From assembly GCA_034780895.1 (NCBI GenBank), contig JAUZTB010000127.1, forward strand, positions 27,405,021-27,469,020: 64,000 bases of DNA, in the 5' to 3' direction. Below are positions 1,180 through 58,170 of the stretch, piece by piece. The stretch is from Rhynchobatus australiae (taxonomy: Eukaryota). The translations under genes and the position numbers were made by a program. Position 1 is the first letter of the stretch. Every line of letters starts with the position of its first letter. The notes beneath the pieces were generated by a model that saw nothing but the letters and a program-made list of their open reading frames with translations, did no database searches and had not been told where the DNA came from.

Positions 1180-1357
1180 CCTATTTTTCCTTGCACCATC
1201 ATCACTTTAGACATTTAATTCTTTTGCCTATCACCTTTAGTCCTTTCTTCCCTTCCTCCGTTCTCTGCATTTTAATAACTTATTTAATCTCTAACTGATG
1301 AAAAGTCATTGATCTGAAATGTTAACACTACATCCTCCACAGAGACTGCCTCACTCA
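1180..1357 (+). mobile_element. Penelope-type terminal repeat fragment with degenerate hammerhead core
   Basis: CTGATGA(1295-1301)-aaagtcattgatct-GAAA-tgttaac...ctccacagagactgcc, homologous to copies at 31198 and 47248. Confidence 0.55.
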
Positions 1358-2441
1358 CAAAATGACAAGGAATGATGCTCCACCATTGAAAATAGACTTA
1401 ACTCAGAACAACACTGCATCCACCTCTGGGCACCTTGGCATCCTATGAGAATTTCAACCTCTGACATTTCAGTGGGATCTTTGTTAACACTAGAATTCTT
1501 TTCCTGATGTATAACTGCCGCCNNNNNNNNNNNNNNNNNNNNNNNNNNNNNNNNNNNNNNNNNCCAATGTTATTTTCAACCCTACTGATTTGATAAATAA
1601 CTATTCTTATCTATTGTCGGAACAACCAGGATTTTACTGTGTCCCCTGAAACTGAACTATTTGAGGGGGCACAAACTGCATTCTTTGTCTTCAGTGAGAC
1701 AGGTGATCTTCTGCAACCTCAAATGCAGACTCACAAACTGCTTTGTTCAGAGATGTCAGGGCCACAGTCTCTCTCAGCCTCCTTTTAAGGATTATTCCAG
1801 GTTGCTGTGCTCTATGTCACAACTCACAGTTTGTTGCTCACTGTCTTTCAAGCTTTACACTCGGATAGCTCATCTACTTCATCTTCAGCCCACAGGCAGA
1901 ATGGACACAGGGGATTTGATGCCTCTCCGTCGTGCAAGCATTGATTATACTCAGTGGTATTATTCTCTATGGAAGCCTCTCTGGGAGTGCCTGGCTGTAG
2001 TCCAGGTGGCCCTCCTCTGCTCCCCTGAACGAAGAGCATTGCCTTCTCCTGGCTCTAACCTCGGATCTCCTAGGAGCATTCTTGCACTCCCGTCCTGATC
2101 ACATTATCCACTCCTTAAGCAGAAACACTCCCCAGTAGCTTGAAGAGTGCTGCTTACATTTGCTGAGGCCACAATTGATGATCTATATGCCAGCATCTGC
2201 AAAATTCCATGATAGATCAATAGAATTGCGCACACTAAAACTGACACAGTGCAGTGTTACTCAGGGAAACCTGATAACAAATTTCTGGGAACCTTACAAC
2301 TGAAGATCATCACCTTTATGGAATCATTACAAACAACATTAGTGTGACATACAATGCGGTTTTAATGGAACTAAAATGTAATAAAGCAACGTTTAGGTCT
2401 TATACTCACCCATTGCTTTGCAGTAAAAGAGATTTACTTAC

Positions 2442-2645
2442 CCATTAAACTTTGCCTTTCTTCTTTCTTTTTAGCTTTTTGCTTTGCCTCCAGCTGTACA
2501 ATGGATAATGGTGGCGTCATTATCGGGCTTGGCATGGCACTAGCCGCGAACCTGGCTAATAAGCCAAGGCCACTCTCATCCAGGACAGGCGAGGAAAGAC
2601 CATCACTGCAGTCATTCCTATAATCCTCTTCTTCAGAGGTGTAAT
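2442..2645 (-). CDS. TNRC18: TNRC18 coding exon, 204 nt, phase 1-1 (DYTSEEEDY...LDESGLGLLARFAASA...AKKKEERQSLM)
   Basis: Acceptor ttttcaatgtag|AT; donor ATGG|gtaagt; hand translation, absent from the ORF track. Confidence 0.92.
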
Positions 2646-3670
2646 CTACATTGAAAAAAGTGGGAAGTTACTAGCAGTAAAACAATGAACAATAGAGAGT
2701 GGGTTGAAAGTACTGGAGAATGAATCCTATTTGTGGTTTGAGTCTCTTTGTCATCAGTTATGCATCCTTCTTAAGGCTGGAGTAGAAATGTTAAAGTACG
2801 GACAGTTAGACTAAAATTCTTACGATTTTTTATTAAAGAGTAAGACATCCTAATTCCCCATCCAACCCACTCTAGGTTATGTGATATTTGTACTTAAACA
2901 TGAATAGTGTATTGACACTTTGAGGTAAAGGCAGGTATAACTATTAAGGTGCTGAGTGGGTGAAAGATTATCCATTCCTCAGTCACAAGCGATACAAATG
3001 GTGATAAGAATGGAGAGTGACCTTTCTACCTCGGGAATTCCCATTAATGGAACCATATTAAAATACATTTGCCTACATGGACCAACATTCTCCACTCCTC
3101 CAACCCACATTCCCGACATACAAATTTCACAGTACATAAATATAAAACAGATAAGAAATTAAATAACTTTGTGTGAAGGAATTCCATAATGCAAATCTTA
3201 TTTAGTCCTTTGACTGTTGGTAGCTATCAGATGGGCACCTTTTAGTCCAAGGATTAAATTTACAGATGTGTTTTACATTCACGTACCATCTCACAGAGAC
3301 ATCAACATTCATTTTCTTTTCTTTGACTTACATTCTATGCATATTTTAAAATATTTGCACCACTCGATGAAATTTTACTGGTTAACAGCAATTTTTGGTG
3401 GTTTTGCTTTGAAATGTTACAGAAAGTTTAGACCTACTAAACAGTGCAAGATTGGTTAGGGAAAAGTAAAGTTAAGAAAGCCGACTGTTAGCAGCACCTT
3501 TATTATTTCAGGAGATATCGAGCAGCGTAAGTATGTTAAGCAAAGAAAGCTTTCTTCTGAGCATGTAGTTCTCAGAGAAACACATCACAGCTTATTGGTA
3601 AAAGCAAGCAAGCCTACTGCGCACAAAGGAGGCTGTGTGTAGGCAGACTTCGAACAGTTTTGGGTCTTTT

Positions 3671-3684
3671 GTTGTCATGGTAAC
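3671..3684. promoter_or_regulatory. RFX X-box-like palindrome
   Basis: GTTGTCATGGTAAC versus canonical GTTGCCATGGCAAC (12/14). Confidence 0.35.
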
Positions 3685-14369: not shown

Positions 14370-14507
<138 letters not shown>

Positions 14508-16800: not shown

Positions 16801-18015
16801 TTCCAAAACCAAATTCTTTCGAAATATCATTCTTTTGTTTTGTTGATCTAAAATAGCACCTGAATTTGAATGTGGTTTCTAAGACAAAATGCAGGCTAGT
16901 GAGGCAGGAAGATTTTCTTTTTGCTTCAATATTCAGGCCAGTCCCTACTCCATCTCTCTCAGTTTTCCACCCCCCCTCCCCACCCGCCCCCTCCCCATGT
17001 CAATCAGTTACAAAGATTGATATTTGGGCTACTTGGAAGTCCCTGGAACTAAACTCCCATCAAGTAATGTTGACATCCCAGATGTTCAGCCTGACAGTGG
17101 AATTTGAGTGCTTGACAGCCCATGTAATTGGCACGCATTCACTCCTAGTTTTTGAAGTTTTTCCTGTCTGTTTTAAACAAAAGTTTTAACTGTACACTTG
17201 GGAAAACAAACATTCCCAACACCATTCTAGCAGCGTGTGACCGTACATCAAATATCAGAGATTTATTTCAAAGCACATCACCAGCAATCCAATTTATTTA
17301 ATGTCCTGTCTCTTGATATTGTAGTATTAGGAATCAAATCAGTGTGAAAGGAGGCTCAGCCAGAAAGAACTTTTAGGCTAACAGGCTCCAGGTTCTGGAG
17401 TTATGAAAAGGGAATGCTGGATTAACAGAAATGTGAGCAAACAAAAATATTTATTAATTTTCTTCATTCAAAATTGCAATTTCTAGAAGCAAAGTGGAGC
17501 TGCTCTCTGTCCATCGAAATTAAACCATTCAATATTTTACAGGCCTTACAATAACCCCTATGTTGGTGATAGAGTCAGAGTATTCTGCTTCTCTGCATTG
17601 GTAGCTTAACACAATGAAAGGATACTGTAGCGATGCTTCCAAACAAAAAATATAAAATGTTGTGAATCAAAATGGATCCAAACTTTATTGCCTGAGAGTC
17701 ACGTGAGTCTGCAATTATTTATGTCCTCTGTTTAAAGAAAAATTGACATTTCCAATATTGGGAGATTGTAGAAGATTTAGTTCTTAAGGTTGAAGAAAGA
17801 TTCAACAACAACTTATAGCTAAACTTTTGCGGTATTGAATAGATAATATATTATTATATAGATATTAGGTATTAGATTATTATTACATAGATATTAGTCT
17901 GTTAGCTCAGAAGTTCTTTCTATCTGAGTCTCCATTCGCACGGATTAGATTCCTCATAACACAATATAGATTCCCAAGGGCCGTGGAAGATAAAGCAAAA
18001 ACAGAGGTTACTTAC

Positions 18016-29020: not shown

Positions 29021-31074
29021 CAATCCAGTTAGTGATGCCTCCATGTACCCAGTGAAGCAACAACAGATGTCAGAGAGATTCTCTGTTGTCATTCACTATA
29101 TATCTACCACACTTAAAAATTAGCCGGCTCTCTTTAATAACACCTGTAGATAATATTTATGAAAATTTTGGAACACACTGCTAATATTCTTATTAAAGCA
29201 CAAAATGTCCTTAAAAAGGAACTTAATAGGTTAAGTTTGATATAGAATGCTACTTTTTGGGTAAGTCCCAATCAGTAATTATCTAACAAAAAGGAAAAAC
29301 CAACTGTTGTGAATCAGGATTATTTAACAACATTAGACAAGTAAACCATAAAGGACCTCTTTGTGCTCCACCATTAGCTCTTCCATCTTGGACTCTTGCC
29401 AGCTTTATGCAACACAGCTGCACCCATGTCACTCTGTTCAGCTTGACCCTGTCTCGTTGACTGGGGTTGGTGGAGCACCAGACACTGTTGTGTCTTGCTG
29501 CTGTACCCGGAGTCCTTGTGGGAACAGACTCGTGGGCAGTGAAGTACAATAAAAAGAAAAGATAAAACTAACACATGGCCTTCAGGGAACCAATAGTAAA
29601 AAAATGATTCCTCTAGGGTACTGCTTTTAAAAACTGTTTGCTTTGGATTGACTGAACATAATAACACTCTGTAGAGGTAAAACTTAGTGTGATGGAATTA
29701 ATTTGGACATTTCTCATTTCCCACATTTTTGCATGGAGTGAATGGGCCTGATTGTTTTTTATGAAAAGAGTTTGTTCTATACATGGTTTACACTGAAGTT
29801 ACTGTCACTGTACAATCCTTACAAGACATTACTTCAACCTCACTAATTGGTGATATTTCCCTCTAAAAAGTTACTTTCTCCTTTTTAAGTTGTTCTAAGC
29901 AGATATGTTATGGCTTTACTCAATATCCAAATATTATCAATGCTCCAGCCTTGCACATAAAGCAGCTTCCATAGCTTGAGGACATGCTGAAGCATTTCAC
30001 AATCAGTGAAGTCCTTTAGAAGTATCATCATTCTGGTCACGTAAGTAAATATGAAAAGCAATTCTGCAGGAGGTAAGATCCCAGAAAGAGCAAAGCAAAC
30101 AACTGACGATTGACTACAAATATGTGTATGAAAATCTGTTTCCCAGAGAATACAATGCCATCAGTTGAACCAAATCACTTTAGAACTTCAATTGGGCACT
30201 GGAATGTTGAATCCATGAGCATGGACATGCCTCTTCCTGCATTGGACATCATTCTATTGCAAATTAGCTCATGTTGATCCAATATGCATCATACATTGGG
30301 CTCTTATAACTCAAGTGGGTTTTTACAGCAATGCTTGTTCAGGAGGTGGGCAATTTCAAGGGGGCCTCTCTGACTTGGTCCCGGCCTGGAATAGTGAACA
30401 GGACTCAGGCAGGCCCTAATAAAGCTATTTACTTACAGGCTCGCATCCATTGCGGTACCAATTGCACTCACCCATTCTCCCCAACCACCCCCTTCACATA
30501 ATCACTCAACATCCGATTCCACCATCAATTACAAAAAGCCCCACCCTGATGGGCAGCAACCATCCAACATAACTGCCAATCACAACTCCTTGAGTCTCCG
30601 CCTCCACAGCATCACCCAACTCCCAATCAGCGAAGCCCTGCTACGTGACCAGTCCCATCCACTGCCAGTTGCAGGGAGCTGACCACCTTCTCCAACCCCT
30701 TTCTGATTTGGGACCTTCCCTCTATTCCTGATTTCTATCACATACTTTGCATTGGAAAAGCCTTTTCTAGAGTCAATTCAGTATGATTAAATTTGATGAA
30801 GTCAGGGGCATACATGATGCCACAGAAGCAAGTGGTATCAGAGCATAGGGAGATTAATGGCAACAGAGCTACAGGCAACAAGGTACAAAGGGGTCAGTTT
30901 GATGACCAAATACTTGTCTTATGAGAACTTCTACAAGCAAAGGACCTTCAAGACATTATTGCCATCATCAAAGACAGGAATCCTACTAGATGGCACTCAG
31001 GTGGTGGGCNNNNNNNNNNNNNNNNNNNNNNNNNNNNNNNNNNNNNNNNNNNNNNNCACATCGGAAAAAAAAAA

Positions 31075-31294
31075 TCTGCAGGTGTTGAAAATCTGAAATA
31101 AAAACAGAAAATGCTAGAAACACTCAGCCGATTAGGTAGCACATGTGGAGAATGAAACAGAGTTACAGTTTCAGGTCAATAACCCTTCGTCAGAACTCTG
31201 ATGAAAGGTCATTGACCTGAAAAGTTAATTTTGTGTATCTATCCACACATGCTGCCTGACCTGCCAAGTTTTCCCAGCATTTTCTGTTTTTATT
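31075..31294. mobile_element. palindromic (head-to-head) Penelope-type repeat with hammerhead-like cores on both strands
   Basis: ~97-bp arms 31097-31193 and 31198-31294 are diverged reverse complements; CTGATGA...GAAA on +, CTGACGA...GAAAC on -. Confidence 0.7.
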
Positions 31295-31396
31295 CTAAAT
31301 TCACACATGCTGAGCTGATATGGCCAATCCTGTGTTAAAGCCCTGAGGCAGTAAGACACAGCAGTGAGAATGCTTCAGTGGCTCTGGACCACTCAC

Positions 31397-34815: not shown

Positions 34816-37804
34816 ATTAAAAAGTAAATCAAGGTACCAATGAGTTTTTTTCAAAGAAGCCTAATATATGAAGTGTCCAAGTAATCTGAAGTGGCAAGTG
34901 GAGAGCACTGTGATTAGAAAAATGTTGTTTTCCTGTATCTGTTCAGAAGAGCAGATGGACAGGAAGATAGATAAAACTTGGAAGCTCATCTTAGGTTGTT
35001 TGTGTTAAATATGTGATGAAATAACATATGTGGGTTGTATTCAAAATTCCAAAGTTGAAATCAACAGAACAGAATTTCAGAAGCAGTGTGTAATGTTACT
35101 ATAACATTCACGTGTGGCTGAGGATGAGTTTCCACTCCCTCTGTTTGGAGAACCATCCAGGACCATGAATCACTGTACTTAATCCATCTGATCTTCTCGA
35201 CTGCTTTCAATTAGTTAAGGGAGCTGGAGAGGAATTTTCCAGAAACCTTTTTTTCCCTTTTGGACCCTGGATTTTTCCATTTGTTTGCCTCTCCCAGAAG
35301 ATTGAATTCCTGCAGAGGGTAGTTGTCTGACCATCATGAGTTTGGAGCAGATTTACATGACCAACTGGTCTCTTCCTGGCCCTCATTTTTATGTGTTTGA
35401 ATGAATTGCACATAAAACCCTGCCTTGTGAGTATAGCAGTGGGTGAGTCTGGTCTACATTTCATTTGCTTTAGTCATTTCTCATTACATTCCATCTAATG
35501 GGAAACCCATCTTTCACTGAAGCACAACCTACTAAGTGTTGCCTTTGAAAGTTCATATTTTGGGAGGGTTGAGCAGCAAAAAAACAACATTGAGTGAAGT
35601 CATAAAGGACGATTCTGTGTATAACTCATTTTTTTCTGATGATGAGAAATGCTTACTGAGCCGCAGTACAAAAACTAAAGGCGTGTTATGGCCATTTTGG
35701 AGAAATATGATTTCACGTTATGGTATTTTGGCTCAGGATAATAGAAGAGTTAAGTTGCGCGACTAACAGGGCCCCTTCTACTTCAACTGTACTTATAATG
35801 GGATGAAATAAAAAGCCAGAATAGTGTGATTTTATGCAACATTTATTATAATAATTGCTTTTAATTTCCCCCTTCCATTTATTCCTACAGGTGGTTCTGG
35901 AATGAGATAATTCTGCCTTATACAGAGAGCTGCTGTTAAAATCCATGAATAGAAGACTTGTCTTTAAGAAAAATGAAAAGAGTGTGTACAGGCCCCTCAC
36001 TGGCCATGCTCATGTACAGGCTTAGGCTGTGTCTAGGCAACCCTGCCCTAAATATCAGCATTTCATTCTTACAATACATCAGATTAGTCATCTAAACTGT
36101 GCTTTTACCTTTCTGTAAAGCTCAGTAGGTTCAGAGCCTTCTCTTATCACTGGCAGACTAATGTTATTACCAGGCTTTCCATGTGCAAGATAAAACAAAA
36201 TTAATACTTTTTCTCCCAAGGCTTGTCCCGTGTCGCCTAGCAACAGACTGGAAAACTGGTTAGAATTCCATTCTTGTTTGCAGCTTTTAGTTCTGCTCAG
36301 TAAATTACACTTAATGTTAGCTGCCTGTATCCTAGTCATTGAAATGCTTTACAAACAGCTCCCTGTGATGCCACTGCCGACTGTGGACTGTTGGGCCTTG
36401 GCAACAGCCAGAGAAACTACTTCATAGACAAAGATTTCCACTGCAGACCACATGATGTCTAGCCAAAAGAATTTCTATACAACGACATGCAAAAGAGAGG
36501 GAAGTGTTCTACTTTATTGTCTCCCACTGTGCCACCAATCAATTTTTACATTAAAAACACATCATATTGTTGATGATGGACAGGACTAGGTCATGTGAGC
36601 TGTACACAGAAGTGCTAGGTTGAATGGCATAGCGTTGCTTTATTCTTTGCCTCCTGCATGTAAATAAAAGAAGAGACTGCTATAGATCAGTTTAAATGGG
36701 AGGCTACATTCCAGCCAGCTAGTGAGTTGAAGGCAAACATTAAAAACAAACTTCTGTATGTCTGAACAAGCAATCGTCTTACAATACTACAGCTATGGGC
36801 ACTTTAAATTTTATAATTACCAACACACGATGGATTATGATTTTATTTCACAAGCTTCCAATAATTGTAAAGAAAATATATCTTTTCTACCCCTTGGTTA
36901 TAATGAAACTTAACCAACGTATCCAAAATTTTATTTTATATTTTGGGGTGTCCAATGTCAGTCTTAGTTATATAAAATACCTGGTTGCTTAAATCATTAT
37001 GAAAGGAAAAATCAATATTTCAGTTCAGCAATATTCAGGGCAAACAATTCTGTTTGTTTCAATATTCGATTTTGATTGCCAGTGCCCTCTGCAACAATAA
37101 AACTAAAAGCTTTCTGCACATACAGACCATGTTAGTTTAACCTTGCTGACTCTGTGTAGATATTTCCCTTCTCAGTGTTTGAAATTCCACAATTTAATGT
37201 TTGCTTCATGCATAGATCTCGAACCAGACGAAGCCCATTATTTTAAAAGTTCCCACTGTGCCCGTGAATAGGCCATTCAGTTCCATCTATTACACTGCTT
37301 ACTTTATCTGTGCAAATTCCTTTATTTAAAAACGTATTCACAACCAGCTAAAAAACACCGAGACCAAGTTATACAAGAGAAATTATAAAGTGAGAGACAA
37401 TGTTATCATTCATGTCTTTTCTAAAAATAATTATTAACCCCAAAGAAACAGGAGTCCTATTTCATAGGAGCACAATGAATAAAAGGAGCTGATAAACTAA
37501 AATAATAACATTATTACATTTGTTGACTAGGCTTTTCCATTCCTATGATACCCATCGATCTTGGAAGGACTAAAGTGGCAGATGCTGTGTGCTTCTTCTC
37601 CAGTGTTTCCCAGCTGCCAACCAGGCCATGGAATAGAGGCCATAGCATGAACAATAGACACATTGTCTAGCTACAGGAACAGACCCAAAGGAGATCCCTA
37701 ACCTTCACACCTCACAAGAGTCAAGAGCATTCAAGGACTAGCACTAGAAAACATGGTCCCACCCTGCCAAACGTGCCCCAAAACAACACTGGTCATTTCC
37801 TTAC

Positions 37805-39628
37805 CTTTTACACTGTTCATGGAAAGTGAGCGATCCCTGTCCATCACACTGGCACCAGGTTTGCCACTGTTGTCCTTCTGGCGGGCCACTGCCACTGCAA
37901 TCCCCACAGGTGGATGCCTCACTTCCACCTCGCCCTGCACTCCACTGCCCTCTCTCCCGAATGACTTTGCGCTCTCAGGCCTTTCTGGGTCTCTCTTGAG
38001 TTGTTTGTTCAGCTGCTGAAGCGGCAGGTGCTGTACCTTGGAAACGCTGTGCTGGCTGGAATCGGCCTTCATGTTCCCTAGCCCACCGAACGGGCTCTTC
38101 TTGCCGCTCCCAACCCGCCCTGCTGTCTCCTTAGCAAAGCTGCCGCTGTACTTTATTAAGCTTTGCATGGCTGAAACCTCACTGGGATTTCCCACTACGG
38201 CAGACCTTTGAAGGCTGGCTGGGTCCAGGAAAGCCTTCTTTTGTTCCTCCTCAGCTCGACTCACATGGTTATGCTGGGCTGCCAAGGCTGCCATTTGAGT
38301 GGTCGCGTAGGTTGCCATTTCAAATGGCTTCCACTTTGGCTCTGGAGTGCCAGAGCGCTTCAGCTGGGATTGCTCCAAGTGCAGCCTCGTAACATCTACC
38401 CCATTATAAACTTTACAAGAGTCCTTCAAGACAGACCTTTGGAATCTATCCCTCTCTTGGGTTCTGTGATCGACTTCAAAACCTGATCTCACTAAGTCTT
38501 TTGATGCGGCATTACTTGTGTGCAAGTCTCGACTCTCTGAAGGACTAAGGCCTGGCTTGTTCAAAAACAGTTCTGAAGTCATGGGCCTCTTTATTGCTAA
38601 AGAGTTGGACCTAATGACTGATCCTTCCTCCCTCATGTTTTCTGCCCTTTTGATATCTGCATGCACAGGCAAGTCTTGTGCAAGCATTAACCGGGAAGAT
38701 TCCACCAGCGTCCTTTCAGAAGAGGCTTGCAAAGTGCCTGCTCTGTCCCCAGAAGTTCTATTGATGTCTTTCTCTTTATTTTTGTCACTTTTGTTGTCTC
38801 TGGCCTGAGAAGCTATTTGAATGGGCCCATTTCTGTCCTCATAAAATCCAACTGAAGGCACAAAGGTAGGTGCAATCACTTTATGTTCCTTTCCCGGCTC
38901 CCTGGCAGTGGGGTATATTGTGTAGATACTGGAATGAACAGGAAGAGGGGGGAATGTGCTGGAAGGTGGCATCCGGGCTGTTTGAGAAGAATGGGGTGAT
39001 GGACAGCCACAGGAGACATGCAAAGTGCCAACCGAAGTCACGACTGAGTCACACTTCCGGGTCTTTTCCGTGTGAGCATGCAGCAGAGGTCTCATGTTCT
39101 CATCATGTTTCATGGAGTCTTTGGAGCATCTGTCCTGTTCACTGCCCGCAAGCCTTAACGAAGAACTGGAATCACTGTTACAATTACTGAGAGATAAGGT
39201 CTGTAGGGGGTTTTTAGACTTTGGTTCTCCATTGCCAGTCCCTCGGTTGGGAGAGTGATTGTTAAGAACTGTGGAGAGATGGTCACCAATCTTGATGGGT
39301 TTATCAAGAAGGTGCATCCTCCTGTCGTTTTCATTCCGAACGTCTTGTGTGAGGTCCACCACACTCCTAGGCCTGGATTCTTCCCTGGGCTTATCCTTCT
39401 CTTTTTTGGCCATATTCACATTTACCTCAGTCCTGTAGATTTTCTCTTTAGAGTCTTTGCTGAGATACCTCTCAGACTCTTTTGCACTTTTGTGAGGGTG
39501 ACATATTTCTTTCTCTCGTAGAACAGAACCTGGCGTGTGACTGGATGAGGTCCTTGGGATGGTAGTTGGAGGGTTTGCTGTGCCATGAAGGGATGATTGT
39601 CCTGCATGGCTGGGGAAATAGTATCCAT
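37805..39628 (-). CDS. TNRC18: TNRC18 large coding exon, 1824 nt, phase 1-1 (DGYYFPSH...SLSMNSVK)
   Basis: Acceptor ctcttattacag|AT; donor AAAG|gtaagg; in frame with ORF 37731..39419; contains KVIAPTFVPSV, WKPFEM, SAMQSLIKYSGSF, EVRHPPVGIAVAVARQKD. Confidence 0.93.
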
Positions 39629-39719
39629 CTGTAATAAGAGAGGAATAAATACACAGAGGTTAATCCAACAGAAACGGCAACAGTTCAGTTGCTACACATG
39701 GAATTGAAGTGGAGGATGG

Positions 39720-39856
39720 TGGAAGTGCTCAATAGGTTGGACCGCACCTGTGGAAAGAGGACTGGAGTCCTTCAGGTCGACGGCTTTTCATTAACAGACT
39801 TCTGAAAAATAGCAGTGACCTGAAACATAACTCAGGTTCTCTCTCCACTGATTCTG
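39720..39856. mobile_element. strongly degenerate palindromic Penelope-type repeat
   Basis: gtgctcaataggttggaccgcacctgtggaaagag...ttcaggtcga and tgacctgaaacataactc...tctctccac; homologous to 31075-31294. Confidence 0.5.
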
Positions 39857-39889: not shown

Positions 39890-40140
39890 AAATTAAATTA
39901 AAATTTAAATTTTATTAACAGTGTGGTAACAGGCCCTTCCGGCCCAACGAGTCCACACCGCCCATTTTAAACCCGAAATTAACCTACCCATACGTCTTTG
40001 GAATGTGGGAGCAAACTGGAGCACCAGGAGGAAACCCACGTAGACACGGGAGAACGTACAAACTCCTTACAGGCAGTAACAGGAATCGAACCCCGATCAC
40101 TGGTGCTGTAATAGCGTCGCACTAACTGCTATGCTACCAT
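39890..40140 (-). mobile_element. V-SINE copy, relatively young
   Basis: ttaacctacccatacgtctttggaatgtgggagcaaactggagcaccaggaggaaacccacg...gagaacgtacaaactcc; box-B-like atcgaacccc; (aattt)-type tail; retains CpGs. Confidence 0.75.
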
Positions 40141-40149
40141 AATGGTTCT

Positions 40150-40560: not shown

Positions 40561-43500
40561 ACACAGCATCTTTATAGCGGTGAAATATCCACAGCTGTTT
40601 CACAAAAGTAATGAGCAAATGAGAATACATTGTGTCCATAGAGTTGGCTGTCTTGTTGAATAAGAACCTAAATGTTAGTCTGACTTATTGACTTCCTCCA
40701 GTCTCTGCAAAACCAGTCTGGGTCTATTAAATTGAGAGTCCCTTCCACCTTATTCCAACTTAGGAATCTATTAGTCGGACTGATTCATCTCAGAGCCTGC
40801 TGAGTACCACAAGCGTACTTGCTTCCCCATGTGCTGACCCTTGGCTGAACATTAGTGAGTCACAACCCACAAACTGCGTGTGGTATCAACCCTGAAGGAC
40901 ACACACAACCCTGCTATATGTTTATCAGTGTTGTTTTTAAACAAAAGGTTTCAATTTTAAAGATGGATGAGTTCCTGCAAGAGCAAGTAGATTAAAAATT
41001 AGGTTCAAAATGATTTGAAATCATTAAGAATCAGACTACCACACCTAAAAACATTTTAAACCATTGGTTATTTGGCATCAATAGATTGTATTAATTGTGA
41101 AGAATGATATTCATATTCCGTTGGGCTGTTCAGTAGATTGATGCATTCCTTCTCTACAAAAAAAAAATTGGACCAGTTATCAAGGCATGGCATTGATTAA
41201 TGACCACGGGTGAAGTTCACAGCCCAGATAATCCCACTATCCTTGCTGAGGGACATACAAAATACAGGAGGCAGATACAAACTCCAGCCATTAAAAGCAG
41301 CTCCTGAGTTTGAATGTAATGGAACACAGACAACTGGATTTCCATCTTCCTCCTTGTCGGATTTACTGGGAAGGCTCATACTTAGTACATGCCTGTATCC
41401 TGGGATGTGTGTAACAAATGATTAATCAAGGATAACTCATGTCTTTAAGCTGCCTGACCAACACTAAGTCAGTGATGGATGTGATGCATTTGCTTTCATA
41501 CCAGCAGTTAGGCTTCCAATAAATCTCCTGCCAAATTGGAGTCTTCAGAAAGAGAAGTACAGTCAATTCCGGGAAAAATCATACTTGATGGAAGTGCATA
41601 GATCCACGGAGTGAGTTCCCAATCACTCTTAATAAGGTTTGCAGAAATAGTGATCCAAGTATAAAGGGTAGAAATTGGTGGGCATTGTGCTTGTTTATTG
41701 GGAATCATATGGATCACAGGTTCAACCAATTCAATGGTCAGACATTCAGCAGCCATTCTGCACAGGTTCAGGTTGCATGGGGGCCCCTTTGTTTAGGCAT
41801 TTGGGCGACACCTGTACTGGGTTGCATGAAAATGTAAATTAGGGGCTCAACACCTATTAAGTAACACATTTCTACAATTAATGAGAAATTCCACACACTG
41901 GATTCTTCAGACACCAACAAAAAGTATTTTTTTATTTGAAAATTGTGGGGTCTTTTTTGAAAATCGAAGAAAGAAGAAATGTTCCCATGATCCAATTCCA
42001 TCCCTGGGACTACCCAGGCCCCTCCCCTCCCCACAGAAGGAACTAGAGGGCTGCTTCTGGCATAGAAACAACTCAAAATTGAGATCCACTTTGCTGCTCA
42101 GCTGCGTGGTGATATGCGAGCAGGCAACCACAGTTTGTTGGCCTAATTTAGTTGGGAGTCTAAGGCCCAATATTAGTCAGGCCTCAGGCCTACCTGTTCC
42201 AATGCAGTCATTGTTTTCATGATCCCAGTTCATGCCTGCAAGCCTGTGCTGTGCAATTCCCTACTTTGTAAGGCTCACATTCTAATGATGCAAAAATACC
42301 ATTTAGATCCAATTATCTGCTGCTTCAGTATGTGTGGTGTATAAATGACATGGTTTTCAGCCTGTCATCTAAGGAGACCTACACAACCTACTCTAATTTT
42401 GAATGAAAACAGAAAGTGCTGGAAATCTACATGTCTATGGGAGAGACAAGTAATCTCAAGGGTGCCAGCGAAATGTTAACCAATCATTCTCATTCTCTTA
42501 CTGACACATGTGCCTTGTCTTCAGCATTTAACGTGTTGATTTTTTTTCCACCTTCTGCAGAGAAATATTCAAAATGCACATTTTGATTCAGCAAAATGGG
42601 GGGAGAATTGTGAATGCCAACTAAGATCAAAGGTATTAGCTATGACACCTTTTTAATTTGAAAATAATAAAAAGGGAAAGAAAAATTTTTAAGGCAAACA
42701 CATCAGTAGATGGTACCATCCAGCAGATATTCACTTCATTCATTGGATCACTTTTTATGAAGTCGGGTTTATGAAATATTCTGAAGTAGAATACCTTAAT
42801 AGATCTTGGCATGCGCTCCCAATGAGAAACAAAATGACTAAACAGCACAAATACACATGGCCCTGTACATATATCATTTGGGAAAGATATCCACATTATC
42901 GTGACTCTCAACAGAATGAAAGTACCTTCAGTAAGGTGCCATTGCTACCTGTGGAGGTAGATCACAACTGACCCACCTTAAACAGGTTTCATTATGAAAG
43001 CATTCCAAAAAGTTTTAAAAATAACAAGCAGAACAAGTAAAAACTTTGCAGAGCTTGATTAGCTTTACATTTGTCCCCGAAGTATATAACAAACATCATA
43101 CAGAATCAAAAGAGGCCATTAGATCTCCTTCTTTAAGTAGACATAGCAAAATCTGCACTAATGAAATCACTTCTCCAACTTATTTAATTTCCTGTGGAGA
43201 TCCGGCTGATCATAGGATTGGCTTCCAACATGTTGATGCTCTGCTAAATTTCATTGTGACTTATATTCCCCAAAGTCATTCAGTAGGATCCCATGACATT
43301 TACATTACAATCCATATTAATTGACCCTTACCAATTACATTCCCAATCATCCCAAAGGACTAGAGCAACAATGTCCCAAGTGATCTACTTAATTATTTTC
43401 ATACAGACCTAATGTGAACCTCTGTGTTCCCCAATTCAATTCAAAACCGGTTATATATTAAAATCCTTTGCAAATGAATTAAGTTAATAGTGTTAAAAGA

Positions 43501-46910: not shown

Positions 46911-47228
46911 TTTTTTGAGCAAGTTTGTCTGATGTGTGTTTCAAAAGTTAGCACACTGTCCCCTGAGAGTTGAATATCTTGGCATTTAATGAATAGCATA
47001 AATTAGGCGCATTAACTGATCCAAAACTAAATTAATAATTAACTCACAGACAAATAGGAATGGGGCAGGGGATATTCATCCAGGGATCATCGCTGCCAAA
47101 GGATTTTCCATACATACCACACTTCGTCATCTAAACTGGAGTGTGTATATAAGATTCTATTTGGAAAACCCCGTAGGAGCGCAGGGTTTTCCAGAACAAA
47201 ACTGAAAAATTACCTAAAACAAGTCAAA

Positions 47229-47345
47229 AACCTGTAAGTGCTGGAAATGATGAAGGGTATTCAACCTGAAACATTAACTGTATTTCTCCTTCCACAGATG
47301 CTGCCTGACCTGCTGAGTTTTTCCAGCATTTTCTGTTTTTATTTT
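47229..47345 (+). mobile_element. Penelope-type repeat arm with near-intact hammerhead core
   Basis: aTGATGA-agggtattcaacct-GAAAC-attaactg...tccacagatgctgcctgacctgctgagtttttccagcattttctgtttttattt. Confidence 0.65.
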
Positions 47346-48479
47346 ATATGAAATCACCTAGGAATTTTACCTCACTTGCTTCAAGATTCAACCTTTATGA
47401 AGAGCAGAGTGCCTGAAGCTATCAGACTCTGCTAGCCTGCATTCCATCTTCAGGCTATGCTCATCTCTCTGTACGTCAGGGTGGGGAGATGCATCTGATC
47501 AGAGACGAGAGCAGCCTTTGCATATACATTTGGGAATCAGATTAAATTTAAAAATGAGTAGCTTTTACACTTGCATTTGTAAAGAAAACTTGGTTTACAA
47601 ATCAGCATGTGCATATTTTTAAAAGAGATTATAAAGGCAGTCGACAGTCACATAAAGGTGCCCAAAAAGCAAGACCCATTTCTCTGAGAACATTACCATG
47701 AGACTCCAAGTGCAGGTAATAAATCACAGTGTGCCAGATGTTTCAGATCATGCGATAAAATGTTGCATGAATCAGCAGCTCAGGAAGACAAGCTTGAGGT
47801 TTAGGATTTCACGAATCATTTTAAATCTTCACTGATTAAATACCAATTTAAGGAGACTTGATCATCTGCGAGAGTGCTTTGCAAATACAGGCAATTTTCT
47901 TCTGCTAACATATCAGGTGAGGTTCAAACAGCACATCACAAATTTTCTCAATGTTTTTTCAATGGTGGGACAACCTCAAATAGGGCACAAAAATTAACCA
48001 TTCAGCCCATTATGCCTATGGCAGCTCTTTGAAAGAACAATGATTTCCAATTTTTTGCTCTTTTGCCTGTAACCATTTCATTTTCAATAAATGTACTGTC
48101 ACATGGCATAACTCAGGTAAACAACATGATGTATCTGAGTGGAAAATGGCTCCCTTGTATGTGTTTAACTCTCTTTTGAAAGTTACTGTTTAACCTGGTT
48201 GCTCTAACTCTTCAGGCAATGTATTCTAGATCATGACTACTTGCCGCAGAAAGAAAACTTATCATTTCTCCTGAATTTCCAGTTAGCAATTCCCATCAGT
48301 GGAAAAAAGGAATTGGAACTTGTTACTGCCTCACACACTAATTGTGTGACATGGGAGTTTAGGTCTCTGCTCTGTGGAGATCATTCCCATTCTCTGGTTT
48401 CCCCACGCAACTGAAAGCTCTCGTCCACTCATTCATCATCGTTCAGTGAAAATCCTGGAACTTCTTAAATAACACCAAA

Positions 48480-48810: not shown

Positions 48811-51772
48811 CTGGAGAACCTTCACCAGTTCAAGAGGAAGCTCACCATAATCCTCTCAAGGGAAATGAGGCAAGGGCAGCAATGTCTATATCTCAGAAAT
48901 GAATTTAAAAAGTACCTTTGCTTCTGCACCATTTCCAAAGTCTGGCTTGAAAATACCACTTCAGCTCTGCTGCCTGACATCCAAGCCAGAGAAAGACTAC
49001 AAAGAGGCCAGGTGAATATGAAATAATCATAAGACTATGGGCAGCGAACAGAGAAATGTGCGGAGTAGAAATTATGAAATACGCCCATTGGCTCTGATCA
49101 AACTACTTGTTTTTCTCAAAATCTCCAAAGTGCTAAACTCTGATAAAATAAATGACCTTCCCCTGTTATTTCGTTCTACAATGAACTGTTTCTGTTATTT
49201 ATAAAAATGATTTTATGATCACCTGACCAGACCATGGACTATTTTTAGCTATGCACAATTATATGGCCAGGAACCAAGAAAATGTAATGCACTGAAAGCC
49301 ACAGGAGAATCAGTGACATTTTTAATCCAATTTATTTAGAGAAATATATGAAGTATTGTCTGAATGCATTTAGTGCTCATTATTGACAATGAATCAAAGT
49401 TCTCTTTTGGAAGTTTATTATACAAGGAGTACAGATTCAGCCAGTGTGCATTTTATTTCTGGTCCTCCTGTCTTGTATCAGCCACAGGTGGTGGTGGTGT
49501 CTGCCCTATCCCTCAGTGGTGCATGCTCTTCAACCATGACTGTTATGCAAACCACAAGTCACTAGCAAACCTTCCTGGGTAAATAGATGGATAGCAATTA
49601 GAATCGGGAACACCAGCTGATTTCCTGCTCTACTACCAATGGGTACTGAATTCAAGTATCACATCCCAAAGAGAGCCGGGATAAATCAATGCAGCCTTAG
49701 GTTGAATGCCTACTGGTTGTATACAAACATTTTTGTTCATTATATACATAATATATAAGCAAAGAAAATTTTTAAAAAGCACAATTTTATTCTGTACTAG
49801 CATTAATGACTCTACTTTTAGAAATATTACAATGATGTTTGTTAAAACTTCAGTCAAGTAATTCACTGGGGAATCCAAATGAATGAAAACATTTAATAGC
49901 AGTAGGAAACAACTGAACCTTCTTTGAAAAGGCTGGTTATTCTTTTTCATAATTTTTTGATCATGAACAGGTGCTTTCATTTTATTTAAATCCTTCCTCA
50001 TGAAGGCCATTATTTACAATGGAAACTCAATCACCTTGGCTGTTGTGGTTGGGAAAGGGGCAAAAGTAATGAACAAAAAAACATCCTGCTGCTGACATGG
50101 GGTAAAGTAAAATAGGTCACGGGGTACCTTACTTTCCCAGGGTCAAGTGTCACATTGAATATAAATTCAACGCAGCTCAGGTCTGTCCTCTGGTTATCTG
50201 TTTTGCCAAGCTGAAGAACACAATCATTTTTGGTCCCAAGGGGGCAAACTTAAACTCAGGATCAGAACACAATTTTGCTACTTCCCAATGTTTATTTTAG
50301 CATGAAGGGCATTTATGTCAACCCCTCTGTGTAGTGTACCATCCATGAATCAACCCCTTCCACAACCCAGAAAGGATTAACGTTTCAATTTAAACTTCAA
50401 GTGGGTGAATAAATCTCAGGTAGCCCAAGGAGAGGAGGTGATGGTCTCCTTGGTCTCTTTGTGTCTCTCTGAGACACCTTTTAAACTAATTACACACCTA
50501 CAGCTCCCTCCAGCCCGATCATCACTCTTCTCAGTCAATCTGCGTGTCAGAGGTTGGGTAGGATGGGGGTGAGGGTGGGGGGTGGGGTGGGTTAAGAAGA
50601 TAAACTGCTGGAATAGAAGTGTAAATGTGAAGTTACTCTCCAGTGACCTTGAAGGAGAGTGCTCTGTTGATAAAGGAGGCAGAAATACACTTTAGTTGTT
50701 CGTGCTTTTTAAGTCTATTGACTGTCTTCGCTCTAGGCAATCATAAAGTGACGGTCAAGTTGTGTATTGTGGTTGGGAAAACCTGGTGCCATTTTATAGG
50801 TTCAAATTCGTCCTACCAGGAGTGCCACAATCTCATCAAGATATTCAAAGTGAATTCTGAGTCCAAAACCACTTGTTTTATTTTCCGCTGTACTCCTCTA
50901 ATTAAAAGCACAAGGTTCAAAAAGCCACAATGCTGAATATACACCTCAGCTGCTTGCCAGGTTCAAGACCATGTTTTTGATGACATTAGCTTAAAGAATA
51001 ACATTGGAAAGAGCAAGGTAGGTCATTGCCAGCAATTAGCATTCTAATTTAGTTGACAATCAAACAGTAAACATTAAAAAAAACTCAAATTGCACAAAGT
51101 CAGTTTGTAACAGTCATAGCATNNNNNNNNNNNNNNNNNNNNNNNNNNNNNNNNNNNNNNNNNNNNNNNNNNNNNNNNNNNNNNNNNNNNNNNNNNNNNN
51201 NNNNNNNNNNNNNNNNNNNNNNAAACAGTAAACATTAAAAAAAACTCAACTATTTCTCAATTAAAGCACTATAGTCTGCACATTTAATTGTCATTATTGT
51301 CACTACATTTCAGACAAATTCTTTGGAACTCACTTCCCGCAGGTTGAGTTGTTTATGAAATTCATTGGTATGTTTGGAAAACAAATTTAAAGAAGCAGAT
51401 ACATAGGGAAGTTCTGGTGGGGCAATTCAAAACAGAGAGGGTATAAAAATAAGATGTTTGAGGTTTAATGGTACTTTCTCATACGAAGACATGCTAGTGA
51501 TCTCTCTAGATCAGTTCTAAAGCCTCTAGTAATTTATGAAAATTACCAAATGCTCTGGGGATTTTGGAGTGAACTCCAGGTCACTAAAGAGAAGACCTTA
51601 ACACCACCTCCCCACACTTTTGCCAAGCAATGCCCTGAGAAGATATTTGCACCAAGCTGTGCCTGCAGCCTTTGGCCTGCAAGGCCTCAGGAAAGCTGAA
51701 GTGCCCAGGCATGCACAAGGGAATCAAAAATATGGAGCTCTCTCCTCTGAAAGGCAATTGGGGCTGGAGAAG

Positions 51773-51990
51773 GAAAAACTGCAGATGCTAGAAATCTCAG
51801 ATAAAACCAGAAAATGCAGGTCAGGCAGCATCTGTGGAAAAAGAAACACAATTAATGTTTCAGGTTAATGACCTTTCACTAGAACTAGGAAAATTTAGAA
51901 ATCAAAGATGCTCTAAATTTCAGAGAAAGAGGAGGGTTGTAGAGAACAAAGGGAATATCTGTGATAGGTGTTGGTGCCAAATGAATAAAC
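51773..51990 (-). mobile_element. Penelope-type repeat arm plus body fragment
   Basis: ctgcagatgctagaaatctcagataaaaccagaaaatgcaggtcaggcagcatctgtggaaaaagaaacacaattaatgtttcaggttaatgacctttcactagaact. Confidence 0.65.
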
Positions 51991-52089
51991 CTGAGATTAA
52001 TAGATTATTGATTTTGGAACCAAGGGGATGGAGTTAGGACACAGATCCGCTGAGATCTAATTAAAAGGTGTACTCCTTTTCTTAACACT

Positions 52090-53540
52090 TGACTCTTTGA
52101 AGATCCAAATTCATAACTTGGTAACCACGTGTGGCAAAAAGGAAGAGGCCAGTGTCGTTGGACTGGCTATTGGAGGTAGGATGGCAGGGAGTTGGTCAGC
52201 CTTTATTGATCATAGATTTAAACGGTTGGGTACTGGGGGTGGGCTCAGAGGAATAGTGCTGTTGAGGGATTGGAGAAATCTGAAGCATGGATCCAGAAGT
52301 GATTGGGAGATGTTTTCAGTGAATGGTGGGGGTATGGGTTGGTTTGGAGGTGGTGAGGAGTGAGAGGGCAGGGATGAAATGCAGATGACCTGGAAGATAG
52401 AAGCTAACCATGGTACTTAGTTTATCACTCGCAAAACCTAGTTGTTCTGGGAGTGGACAATGGCGGGTAATCTTTCGAGCAACATGGTCTACAAAAAGAG
52501 CTTTTACAGAGAATGTTACTTGGTGGACACTTGGATACAGAAATCACATCAGAGGTGAAAGCTTGATTCACGCCAGGAAGTGCCTGGTCCAGTTTCCATG
52601 GTGACATGCACAGATCCTGAAATAGTTGTTGCTAGGGAAAGTACATTTTCAATCACATATCACTGAGGTAAACAGTGCAATCCAATTTCTAGGCTTGCAT
52701 AAGTTCTGTTGTGGAAATCATATTTTTGGATGATCTGGGTGAGGTTTATTGAATATATGGATAACTGAGGCAGCCTATAGAGTGGAGGCAAGTGCGGCGA
52801 AGGGCAGTGTTGCTCGGCTGACAGCAGATAATGTTTGTGACAGAGAGAATTTGGGTTGGGAGGGAATGGCAACCAGTATGCTAACAATGCCCTTTTTTTT
52901 CTGGTATCTAACTGGATTCAGCTGATTCAGGCTGGTGGATAAATTGACAATATGACTTGGATGAGCAAACAATAAACTGCTGGAAGACCTCAGCAGGTCA
53001 AGCAACATCTGTGGAGGCAAAGGAATGGTCAATGTTTTGGGTTGAGACCCTGAATCAGGATCCTGTAGAAGTCCCATCCAGTCCTTATTCAGGGTCACGA
53101 CCCAAAACGTCGACCACGCACTTGCCGCCACAGTGTTGCTTGACCTGCTGAGTTCTTCTAGTAGTTTACTTTTTGTTCCAGGTTCCAGCTTCTGAAGTCT
53201 CATGTGTCTCCATGACTTGGATGAGGCAGCATATCAGTGAAGAAAAGGAGGGAAGCAAGAGTAGGTCTTTGGACAATTCCAAAGAGAATGGGATAGGGAT
53301 TGGAAGAGCCTCGTCAGAAAGGGATACGATCTTGATAGGTCAGGATGGAACAAGTGGCACCAATGGGAAACTAGGGAGACTTTGGAGAGGGTTAGTGAAA
53401 GCATTGTATCAAACAATATAAAGAGTTCAATGTAGATGAGGAGAGAGCATGCAGCAATTTTCTGATTACCATCTCAGCCAGAAAGGGCACTGATAAAAGG
53501 AGGGTGAGGTAGGATTGTTTGACCACATAACTGAACACAA
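52090..53540 (-). mobile_element. very degenerate LINE (L2-like) body, interrupted by the palindromic repeat
   Basis: Long G/A-rich strand-biased stretch similar in character to 31620-32150. Confidence 0.35.
52965..53195. mobile_element. palindromic Penelope-type repeat, second subfamily
   Basis: Left arm ctcagcaggtcaagcaacatctgtgg...ggtcaatgttttgggttgagaccctgaat and right arm attcagggtcacgacccaaaacgtcgacca...ccacagtgttgcttgacctgctgag are reverse complements. Confidence 0.7.
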
Positions 53541-56500: not shown

Positions 56501-57464
56501 AGGGGGAGCTCCAAACCAGAAATGCCTGAACAAGGCAACTATCAACTTGAGGAAATGCATTGCTTCAATTACTGTCCCTAATTTACATGGAAGAGAACAT
56601 CCAGTATCCTTCACAATGGGTTTAGAATTCCCTGGTGGATGTAACATCTGCAGATATAACGTGTGCAGGGGAGTGGAGGGGGTAGCATAAAAACTGTGAA
56701 CTTTAGAAGATGGCAAACATTTACTGATGCGTACACAGGTTGTATTATACAGTGCTATTCACCGATGAAACCAGCAGCTTCCACTTCTACATGACAACTT
56801 CACAAGGATGCAGAGGCACATTTATAGAGCAGAATGCACAATATTGCCTGGAGTTCAGGCAGATCTTTGCTAAATCACGGGTTGCTGACTAAAAAGGTTC
56901 CCAACTCTGGCTGGCAGCAGGACATCCTGTGACCTTCGCCACCAGCCGATCCATCCAGTCCAACAGCCTTCCATGTTATCCTAATATTTTTACAACATAA
57001 AGTTCAAAAGAAAAAGAAATAAAAAGTTTTTTTTAATACCCTCAAGATGTTTTCTTTTCTTTCCTGGCATTGCAGTGACCAGGAGATGAATCGCAGTTTC
57101 CAAAGGTCTCCAGGGTAGCTCTGGAGAGGCTTGGACATTGTGAGGTGGGCAGTGACCTCTGGTGAAAAAATGAATCTCTTCACAACTATAGAAAAGGGAG
57201 CCATGGTGATATAAAGGTAAAACCAAGTTAAACCTACATCCAAAGAACTAATTTTTTCTACGAGCATGGATGGAGGAAAGTGGGTGAATAGAATAAAAAT
57301 TCATGAATGAATTTTCTCTACACTGAGGTTTGAAAATGCAAGAAATATTCATTCATCACCCCAAATGGGAGTCCCCAATTCTATTCTCATGCTAATCTGA
57401 AGTTACAAAGGCTAATCTCAGTCCACTTTGCTAATAAATTGCCATCCTACTTTTTAACCTTCAT

Positions 57465-57725
57465 CACAGAATCTTATAGTACAGAGGGTATGGTACAGCC
57501 CATCCACTATGAAATGGCCCTTTGTAAGAATGATCCAGTTAGTCCCCTTCCCTCACCCTTTCCCCATCGCTCTGCCAATTATTTCTTTTTCAAGTGTATA
57601 TTCAACTCCATTTTGAAGATAACAATTGAATTTATTGCTTTCATTCAGTGCACTGCAGACCATAGCAACTTGCTCACAAAAACAACTTCTCCTTTCTCCC
57701 TTGGATCTTTCACAATGACAATTTG
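57465..57725 (-). mobile_element. CR1 3' fragment
   Basis: cacagaatcttatagtacagagggt...cagcccatc...tccagttagtccccttccc...gcagaccatagcaacttgc. Confidence 0.5.
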
Positions 57726-57759
57726 TTTGTTGTTTTCTGCTAATGAGCATAAATCAAAT

Positions 57760-58170
57760 ACAAGACACAAGAGACTGCAGCAAAAAATAAACTGCTGGGA
57801 GAATTCATCAGGCAAGCAGTGTCTGTGGAGGCAAAGGGATAGCAGACATTTCGGATTGAGACCTTGCATCAGGACTGAGAGTGTAGAGGAAAGATAGCCA
57901 GTGAGAGGGAGAGGTGAGACAGAGGTGGACACATAAGAAAGAAAAGGCAGATAGAACCAGGTGGTGGAGGGGAGGAGGAAGGAGACAGAGGTTGGGAAGT
58001 GGTTAGTAGTACCACATAAGGGAGGGGTGATGGGTAAGTGGAACAGGTGGAGGAATGAATAGGGAATATGAACCAATGGAGAAGAAACCCAGATAGATAC
58101 AGTTATGTGGGTGAAGGGGATGAGTCTAGGTTATGAAGAGAGGACGGACAGAAAAGGGGAGGGGTCGAAT
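57760..58170 (-). mobile_element. Penelope-type repeat arm (second subfamily) plus purine-rich body
   Basis: acaagagactgcag...ctgctgggagaattca...gtctgtggaggcaaagggatagcagacatttcggattgagaccttgcatcaggactgag; homologous to the left arm at 52965. Confidence 0.6.

What the first reader, a model, noticed from the sequence alone, without database searches (positions are those of the whole stretch)
1290..57880. Dispersed intronic repeat family whose consensus is a minimal type-I hammerhead ribozyme
Seen: at least seven related loci (near 1295 +, 31187 - and 31198 +, 39800, 47248 +, 51870 -, 53050 - and 53084 +, 57865 -) share the layout [arm]-CTGANGA-like-[hairpin such as aggtc-att-gacct or gggt-cacg-accc]-GAAA-CG-T-H-[complementary arm]. 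The 53079-53114 copy keeps gtc/gac arms, the ACGT palindrome and a GTC triplet. The 1295 and 31198 copies keep an intact CTGATGA and GAAA. Established: CUGANGA and GAAA form the hammerhead catalytic core, and Penelope-like elements and retrozymes carry minimal hammerheads whose very short palindromic stem III works as a dimer. Inference: this is a high-copy family of ribozyme-bearing non-autonomous retroelements with two subfamilies (AGTT/AACT arms versus GTC/GAC arms). Every copy here has at least one core or stem defect, so most are probably dead, which is expected inside a long pre-mRNA.
Basis: partly seen in the sequence, partly recalled or inferred. Interest (0 to 1): 0.72.

Follow-up and report, generated by a model that had tools for sequence, protein, structure and literature searches.

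The report
Decayed Penelope retrotransposon ends with hammerheads
These short repeats in the introns of a TNRC18 gene are broken-off ends of a Penelope-type jumping gene carrying its already described minimal hammerhead ribozyme motif; every copy here is damaged and likely cannot cut RNA, so this is an ordinary example of a known kind.

Summary
The repeat is real: ten arms in the window, all in introns of TNRC18 (minus strand). The family majority fits a minimal type I hammerhead, with a compensatory stem I change between subfamilies (U-A versus C-G). It is not a separate non-autonomous family. Elsewhere in the genome the same arm lies 336-532 bases behind broken RT plus GIY-YIG frames with a Neptune-type cysteine linker, so the copies are 5'-truncated ends of Penelope-like elements. 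One palindrome here has a 14-base target duplication. This layout is published. Only 4 of 210 sampled arms keep the whole motif. Three window arms belong to a subfamily with an inherited C or decayed C at core position 9. Depletion on the sense strand of introns was not shown (25:41, then 35:41 on replication). Cleavage was not tested. The scan has noted this family many times on other DNA. New member of a known kind; interest 0.25.

The parts
1247..1356 (+). Solo subfamily A arm, antisense to TNRC18: short pLTR remnant, core CTGATGA at 1295, GAAA at 1316; stem I 5' strand lost, stem III CpG decayed, tail cut short
31071..31199 (-). Long-tailed arm of palindrome 1 (subfamily A), sense to TNRC18; core starts 31193; stems I and II can pair; stem III palindrome broken
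31197..31304 (+). Short-tailed arm of palindrome 1 (subfamily A); core starts 31198; stem I 5' strand absent, stem III broken. The whole palindrome is predicted to fold as one hairpin (-107.7 kcal/mol, z -12.5). Left flank is an assembly gap, so no target duplication can be read
39702..39856 (.). Strongly decayed palindrome 2 (arms 39702-39790 - and 39816-39856 +), just upstream in gene direction of the large TNRC18 exon
42395..42425 (-). Possible tail-only fragment (weak: E 0.005 with the window-built profile, not found with the independent profile)
47222..47349 (+). Subfamily A arm 47248-47346 (short tail, starts at U4 of the core) joined to an inverted fragment 47222-47247 that resembles the end of the long tail: likely a lopsided palindrome
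51774..51998 (-). Solo subfamily A arm, sense to TNRC18, long tail with a 14-base internal deletion, plus about 110 bases of upstream pLTR
52952..52965 (+). Left copy of a perfect 14-base target-site duplication of palindrome 3
52966..53060 (-). Short-tailed arm of palindrome 3 (subfamily B, C9 type), sense to TNRC18; G8 and G12 lost, stem III CpG decayed
53080..53211 (+). Long-tailed arm of palindrome 3 (subfamily B, C9 type); keeps stems I, II and ACGT but G5, G8 and G12 are lost. The palindrome is predicted to fold as one hairpin (-130.5 kcal/mol, z -12.9)
53212..53225 (+). Right copy of the 14-base target-site duplication
57775..58165 (-). Longest copy: C9-type arm 57781-57878 plus about 290 bases of the pyrimidine-rich pLTR, 60% alike to the region behind the ORF in RT/EN-bearing loci; sense to TNRC18
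37734..39659 (-). Host context: 642-residue open frame, the large exon of TNRC18; further exons at 58924-58748, 44251-44105, 31494-31396, 24096-23887, 22660-22511, 21551-21321 and beyond both window ends

Best explanation
The repeats are old, 5'-truncated 3' ends of endonuclease-bearing Penelope-like retrotransposons (likely Neptune type) whose terminal repeat holds a minimal hammerhead motif that would cut only as a dimer, and the copies in this window are likely inert. How it likely worked: the element's RT-endonuclease cut the target with a stagger of about 8-14 bases and started copying inside the element RNA at one of two fixed sites, about 100 and 135 bases downstream of the start of the ribozyme motif (two 3' ends shown; cause inferred from the published in vitro work on an anole element). 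Copying ran back through the motif and mostly stopped within a few bases of the start of stem I (shown), perhaps the 5' end of the RNA (inferred); more rarely it went on into the pLTR, endonuclease and RT of a read-through template (shown). When both cut strands primed, one at each site, the two short copies met head to head and gave a palindrome with one long and one short tail (layout shown; two-ended priming inferred). After insertion the copies decayed, CpG sites first (shown).
For: Link to coding elements: a same-strand arm follows 16 of 29 endonuclease-like remnants within 500 bases (query locus left out; about 2 expected from the arm density) and 14 of 29 RT remnants within 1.5 kb (query left out). 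In the 8 of 20 ten-kb loci where the protein match reaches the C-terminus the arm starts 336-532 bases further on. 9 of 18 local frames match Pfam RVT_1 (E 2e-6 to 0.02, all below the curated cut-off). Full-length relatives carry RVT_1 and GIY-YIG; a local fragment aligns to the GIY-YIG region of P0097 at 30%, E 1e-14. A CX4CXXC linker is readable in 6 of 20 loci. Motif: arms clustered on the tail alone give majorities with CUGAnGA, one extra base, a 5-bp stem II, GAAA-CG-U-H and a 4-5-bp stem I. The stem I base that was not in the search patterns is T in 25 of 30 A loci and C in 29 of 30 B loci, matching A and G on the other strand. Layout: 34 of 46 adjacent pairs are head to head; both arms of one subfamily in 20 of 20 classifiable palindromes (p 6e-6); tails long/long 1, long/short 27, short/short 6 (p 4e-4); direct repeats of 8 or more bases flank 9 of 34 palindromes against 0.35 in shuffles. 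Decay: 18.5% mean divergence, 4 of 210 arms with the full motif.
Against: No intact or full-length element with two pLTRs was found; the assembly has gaps at many candidate loci. No local fragment matched Pfam GIY-YIG (0 of 1, 0 of 13, 0 of 18), so the endonuclease call rests on relatives and motifs. No Penelope protein remnant lies in the window itself. Covariation comes from two or three subfamily sources only, and related sequences can beat the shuffle control. The clade was assigned by motif, not by a tree. The start-of-RNA reading lacks a cap signature: the base before the short copies is G in 10 and A in 10 of 45. Target duplications on solo copies were no more than chance (3 of 22 against 1.3). 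Catalytic activity was not measured.
Confidence: 0.9

Rival explanations
1. A separate short non-autonomous element (SINE-like or retrozyme-like) made of the ribozyme and tail was transcribed on its own and mobilised in trans, and it accounts for most short copies.
For: 178 of 266 gap-free arms that reach the core show no upstream pLTR, and similarity ends about 5 bases before the core. One short direct tandem with a 76-base period exists (L092/L093).
Against: 5' ends form a continuum into pLTR, endonuclease and RT. All three core types occur behind RT/EN frames (A type behind endonuclease remnants; B and C9 types). Direct tandem pairs are 7 of 46. In the one tandem the double-hammerhead fold is 12 kcal/mol above the predicted minimum (-20.0 against -32.4).
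Confidence: 0.12
2. The palindromes are a fold-back or MITE-like unit that spread as a whole hairpin.
For: The 230-base palindrome finds other full palindromes on many contigs; target duplications flank some of them.
Against: The centre differs in every one of the 34 palindromes printed; the ends are unequal in a fixed way; the same inverted layout with one long and one short tail frames long RT/EN copies L156 and L157.
Confidence: 0.04
3. Some intronic copies act on the host: active ribozymes or the acceptor-like tail harm pre-mRNA and are purged on the sense strand, or hairpins regulate TNRC18.
For: Solo arms pooled 60 sense to 82 antisense (two-sided p 0.08). Core letters intact in 4 of 35 sense and 11 of 42 antisense arms (p 0.15). 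Core identity 92% against 95.5% (p 0.053). The stem III CpG decays to the pair-breaking form more often in sense arms (p 0.005, post hoc).
Against: The orientation bias did not replicate (35:41, p 0.57). Intact ACGT is no rarer on the sense strand (16 of 70 against 13 of 83). The acceptor YAG is kept equally (36 of 56 against 50 of 75). None of the five sense-strand arms in this window keeps ACGT.
Confidence: 0.15
4. Chance resemblance of a generic repeat to the hammerhead core.
For: Rfam finds no hammerhead in the window.
Against: Rfam also misses five loci with intact motifs, so that blank says nothing. All four hallmark features listed by Cervera and De la Pena (PMC4209133) are met in the main subfamilies, at the position expected in a Penelope-like element.
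Confidence: 0.02

Closest known systems
Minimal type I hammerheads (min-HHR) in pLTRs of metazoan Penelope-like elements (Cervera and De la Pena 2014, PMC4209133; parts 1-2 of 4 read)
   Same: No loop III, palindromic 15.2-16.2, extra base between 9 and 10.1, 4-5-bp stem I, several subfamilies per genome, mostly solitary truncated copies, some on opposite strands close together.
   Different: Stem II is 5 bp, not 7-8 as in Schistosoma; subfamily A has G-U or A-U instead of G10.1-C11.1 and U at position 17; one subfamily has C at position 9. Cartilaginous fish are not named in the parts read.
EN+ Penelope-like insertions with an inverted 5'-truncated copy and a one-sided 30-40-base tail (Craig et al. 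2021, PMC8557442; Arkhipova et al. 2013, PMC3846280; passages read)
   Same: Head-to-head inverted ends, tail on one end only, 8-14-base target duplications, RT followed by GIY-YIG, CX2-5CXXC linker of the Neptune and Nematis clades.
   Different: Here both copies are often cut down to 60-135 bases, so the whole insertion is a 200-250-base hairpin; arms cover about 2% of the sampled introns.
PAc (Poseidon) of Anolis carolinensis (Frangieh et al. 2024, PMC11167929; parts 1-2 of 4 read)
   Same: Two fixed 3' ends about 30 bases apart downstream of the hammerhead, as expected from its two internal RT start sites and from extension of both target strands.
   Different: Different clade (linker present here); no biochemistry for this family; start of the ORF relative to the ribozyme not established here.
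Non-LTR retrozymes of animals (preprint 10.64898/2026.07.22.740005, part 1 and passages read; PMC7229834, listing only)
   Same: Non-coding, type I hammerhead, derived from Penelope terminal repeats; reported in one chondrichthyan genome.
   Different: Retrozymes are head-to-tail tandem arrays; the window copies are solo or head-to-head, and continuous with coding elements.

Membership tests
Minimal type I hammerhead (PLE type) | Core CUGAnGA ... GAAA ... UH in the family majority | tested here: met
   Majorities of tail-defined clusters, 77 and 100 arms; 66 and 377 exact genome matches. The C9 subfamily departs at position 9 (151 matches).
Minimal type I hammerhead (PLE type) | Stems I and II with compensatory changes | tested here: met
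   Pair 2.1-1.1 is U-A in A and C-G in B; pair 10.1-11.1 is G-C, G-U or A-U; 80% of cells paired, 16-43% when slid. Only two such pairs, from few independent sources.
Minimal type I hammerhead (PLE type) | Palindromic stem III without loop (dimer requirement) | tested here: met
   ACGT in the majorities and intact copies; in the window only the 53084 copy keeps it.
Minimal type I hammerhead (PLE type) | Extra base between 9 and 10.1; G10.1-C11.1 | tested here: met
   Extra A in 97% of arms; G-C in 46 of 66 B arms, but G-U or A-U in 24 of 30 A arms.
Minimal type I hammerhead (PLE type) | Self-cleavage at the predicted site | not testable with these tools
   Needs an in vitro assay; no RNA run on record for this stretch.
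EN+ Penelope-like element | RT followed by a C-terminal GIY-YIG domain, with the hammerhead in the 3' terminal repeat | tested here: met
   frames are broken in all copies seen and none lies in the window.
EN+ Penelope-like element | Inverted 5'-truncated copy, optional one-sided tail, short target duplication | tested here: met
EN+ Penelope-like element | Full-length copy between two direct pLTRs (partial tandem) | tested here: inconclusive
   None among 20 ten-kb loci; many are interrupted by assembly gaps.
Neptune/Nematis clades | CX2-5CXXC linker between RT and endonuclease | tested here: met
   6 of 20 loci; definition from PMC8557442.
Neptune/Nematis clades | Placement in an RT tree with named references | not tested
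   No named reference proteins were at hand.
Non-LTR retrozyme | Head-to-tail tandem units each with a hammerhead | tested here: not met
   No such tandem in the window; 7 of 46 adjacent pairs direct; one 76-base tandem elsewhere.
Non-LTR retrozyme | Abundant circular RNA | not testable with these tools
   Only contigs, none on record as RNA.
Conserved intronic hammerheads of amniotes (RECK type) | Single, intact motif at an intronic site | tested here: not met
   All window copies are damaged members of a high-copy family.

The most novel reading that the evidence does not exclude
These stubs are a genome-scale record of the unsolved Penelope integration step: both cut strands prime at two fixed sites on an RNA that begins at the ribozyme, and a whole subfamily with C at core position 9 spread from a coding master, showing in vivo that hammerhead chemistry is dispensable for Penelope spread (or that a new bulged-C core works).
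Probability: 0.3. Interest if true: 0.55.

Novelty: new member of a known kind. Interest (0 to 1): 0.25.

Why it matters
As a window finding it matters little: the copies are decayed ends of a known class, and Penelope expansion in shark introns is already reported (whale shark preprint 10.1101/443036, passage read). Its use is as material. Hundreds of thousands of arms (rough extrapolation) allow the two ends of Penelope insertions to be mapped statistically. Natural core variants (A, B, C9) give a ready series for the open question whether the Penelope hammerhead is needed for spread; mutants did not block insertion in vitro (PMC11167929). The hairpins are also likely a large source of intronic double-stranded RNA in this lineage (inferred from folding only).

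Tried and rejected
Rfam: no hammerhead in the window or in five loci with intact motifs, so uninformative. Pfam on the 150 longest of 588 window frames: nothing over a cut-off. Pfam GIY-YIG on local fragments: none. Protein search with an endonuclease fragment among longer proteins: none. Orientation bias: first sample 25:41 (p 0.064), second 35:41 (p 0.57), pooled 60:82 (p 0.078); the second sample is 400 kb, not the planned 600 kb, and half of it comes from a gene already sampled. A regex suggested that acceptor-like tails are scarcer on the sense strand (16 of 60 against 36 of 82, p 0.052); the alignment-based count removed this. Strand-skew proxy for 54 intact loci: -0.010 +/- 0.010, too weak. 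A general transcription-linked mutation bias does not explain the stem III CpG asymmetry: other CpG and tail sites do not follow it; left unexplained. Cap-derived G at the 5' junction: not seen. Target duplications: found for 1 of 7 window insertions and not above chance for solos. Double-hammerhead fold of the natural tandem is not the predicted minimum. Expression: no RNA holder listed. Lunse et al. 2017 on dimer cleavage could not be read; it is known here only through the review PMC6765202 and may already list this family or the C9 variant. Searches that found no description of this family or variant; Repbase, Dfam and paper supplements were not seen.
Full report
Observation. A profile built from 58 genome copies outside the window finds ten arms in it and nothing in reversed control sequence. 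Each arm is the motif followed by a shared tail. The last is flanked by a perfect 14-base direct repeat at 52952-52965 and 53212-53225. The copy at 57775-58165 runs about 290 bases further upstream into sequence shared with long elements, and the one at 51774-51998 about 110 bases. Every window copy has a core or stem defect.

Setting. The long minus-strand frame at 37734-39659 matches proteins named TNRC18. Exon matches on the minus strand run from 110 kb past the window start to beyond its left end (the long frame left of the window is assigned to the gene by strand and position only), so all arms are intronic. The closest named relatives of the element protein come from a bamboo shark, which points to a cartilaginous fish. 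Contigs of two other organisms, about 2-7% different in the introns, run through or into the 51.8, 53.0 and 57.8 kb insertions at the same places, so these insertions are older than those splits.

The motif. I sampled 894 kb of gap-free intron sequence from TNRC18 and from five gene spans inferred from same-strand Laminin G exon matches (the names neurexin-like and CNTNAP-like are recalled, not from a call). It held 210 arms, 9.5-36.6 per 100 kb by gene, 2.2% of the bases, or roughly 5e5 arms if typical. Of these, 177 could be clustered on the tail alone, which avoids circularity. Two groups of 77 and 100 resulted, each 18.5% from its majority, and both majorities read as a minimal type I hammerhead: stem I, CUGAnGA, one extra base, a 5-bp stem II, GAAA, CG, U, H, stem I. 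The first pair of stem I is U-A in A and C-G in B. In pattern-selected loci, where the 5' base was free, it was T in 25 of 30 and C in 29 of 30. The first pair of stem II is G-C, G-U or A-U. On 13 aligned copies 80% of cells pair, against 16-43% when the partners are slid; relatedness inflates such scores, and only two pairs truly covary. These are the features listed by Cervera and De la Pena (PMC4209133). Only 4 of 210 arms keep the whole motif by regular expression; by alignment 15 of 77 that span the core keep all core letters and 4 also keep ACGT. CpG sites are the most decayed columns.

A third core type. 19 of 59 B arms have C at position 9; an exact pattern matches 151 places. The type also lies behind RT/EN frames in L154, L157 and L161. 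The window arms at 53060, 53084 and 57878 belong to it, so this departure is inherited. Whether it is a dead core or a bulged C before the spare A is untested; one search found nothing in print, and the most relevant paper could not be read.

Link to Penelope elements. An intact A motif at L057 had an endonuclease-like frame upstream. A search with it gave at least 150 matches; 16 of the 29 other loci fetched have a same-strand arm within 500 bases, one of them tail-only at that distance. A B motif at L105 had an RT fragment upstream; 14 of 29 other RT loci have a same-strand arm within 1.5 kb, and many of the rest hold gaps. Twenty of those loci, chosen partly because they showed arms or long frames, were widened to 10 kb: where the match to a full-length relative reaches its C-terminus (8 loci) the arm starts 336-532 bases later. 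Local frames match RVT_1 weakly (9 of 18) and GIY-YIG not at all; the relatives carry both and align with the local endonuclease fragment. A CX4CXXC linker in 6 of 20 loci fits Neptune or Nematis (PMC8557442). No intact or doubly flanked copy was found.

Layout and likely mechanism. Of 46 adjacent arm pairs 34 are head to head. Both arms belong to one subfamily in 20 of 20 classifiable cases and the centres all differ, so each palindrome likely arose in one event, not as a copied hairpin. Arm 3' ends cluster near profile positions 100-110 and 130-139, and palindromes pair one long with one short end in 27 of 34 cases, two long ends once (p 4e-4). The long elements L156 and L157 show the same, as do palindromes 1 and 3 in the window. 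Direct repeats of 8-14 bases flank 9 of 34 (control 0.35). An inverted truncated copy with a one-sided tail and short duplication is published (PMC8557442; PMC3846280). Frangieh et al. showed for an anole element that RT starts at two internal sites bounding the tail, that both target strands are extended, and that ribozyme mutants do not block insertion (PMC11167929). The simplest reading is two-ended priming, one strand at each site; this is inferred. Arkhipova et al. offered self-priming on an antisense template instead, which I did not exclude. Short copies lose similarity about 5 bases before the core (this sample includes pattern-selected loci), which may be the RNA start, but no cap-derived G was seen.

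Effect on the host. A TNRC18 transcript would carry five sense arms, none with an intact stem III, and the palindromes are predicted to fold into long hairpins that bury the motif (z about -12.5 and -12.9).

Earlier notes. After I had reached this reading, the scan's notes showed 30 findings in this genome for these words and the same asymmetry in other genomes. They gave me the run-off idea, the duplication test and the paper PMC3846280.

Verdict. Observation confirmed; interpretation partly supported. These are decayed ends of Neptune-like Penelope elements with a known minimal hammerhead. New member of a known kind, interest 0.25.

Noticed in passing
window, tail of each arm (e.g. 47282-47300 +, 51830-51850 -): Just past the predicted cut site the tail reads as a pyrimidine tract, YAG, then ATG, like a splice acceptor; a second tract ending in CAG precedes stem I. 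No strand bias for the YAG was found.
   Followed up: partly
L092:1450-1615 (G000:C1:2828233-2828339): Direct tandem of intact B-type motifs with a 76-base period, next to an inverted RT fragment; the only retrozyme-like array seen.
   Followed up: partly
intron sample, stem III CpG of 134 arms: The CpG decays to CA more often in sense arms (31 against 15 TG) and to TG in antisense arms (33 against 20), p 0.005 post hoc; other CpG sites do not follow. Unexplained.
   Followed up: partly
L095, L104, L108, L117, L120 and cluster of 13: A younger B subgroup (10% divergence) with CUGAAGA core and only a 3-bp perfect stem I; it lies behind an RT/EN frame in L155.
   Followed up: partly
window 39902-40141, 20953-21110, 63495-63660: Another dispersed repeat family, up to 87% alike to copies in other loci; not identified.
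   Followed up: no
window 17316-17387 and 17896-17967: Inverted repeat pair, 72 bases, 81% complementary, 508 bases apart, possibly ends of a small DNA transposon.
   Followed up: no
window 51062-51088 and 51223-51249: Identical 27-base stretch on both sides of an assembly gap, likely an unmerged contig overlap.
   Followed up: no
window 31301-31396 and 39659-39702: Two palindromes lie within about 100 bases of TNRC18 exons; any effect on splicing is untested.
   Followed up: no
window 27599-27994 +: 132-residue frame that looks by eye like a decayed LINE reverse transcriptase piece (recalled resemblance; no Pfam hit).
   Followed up: no
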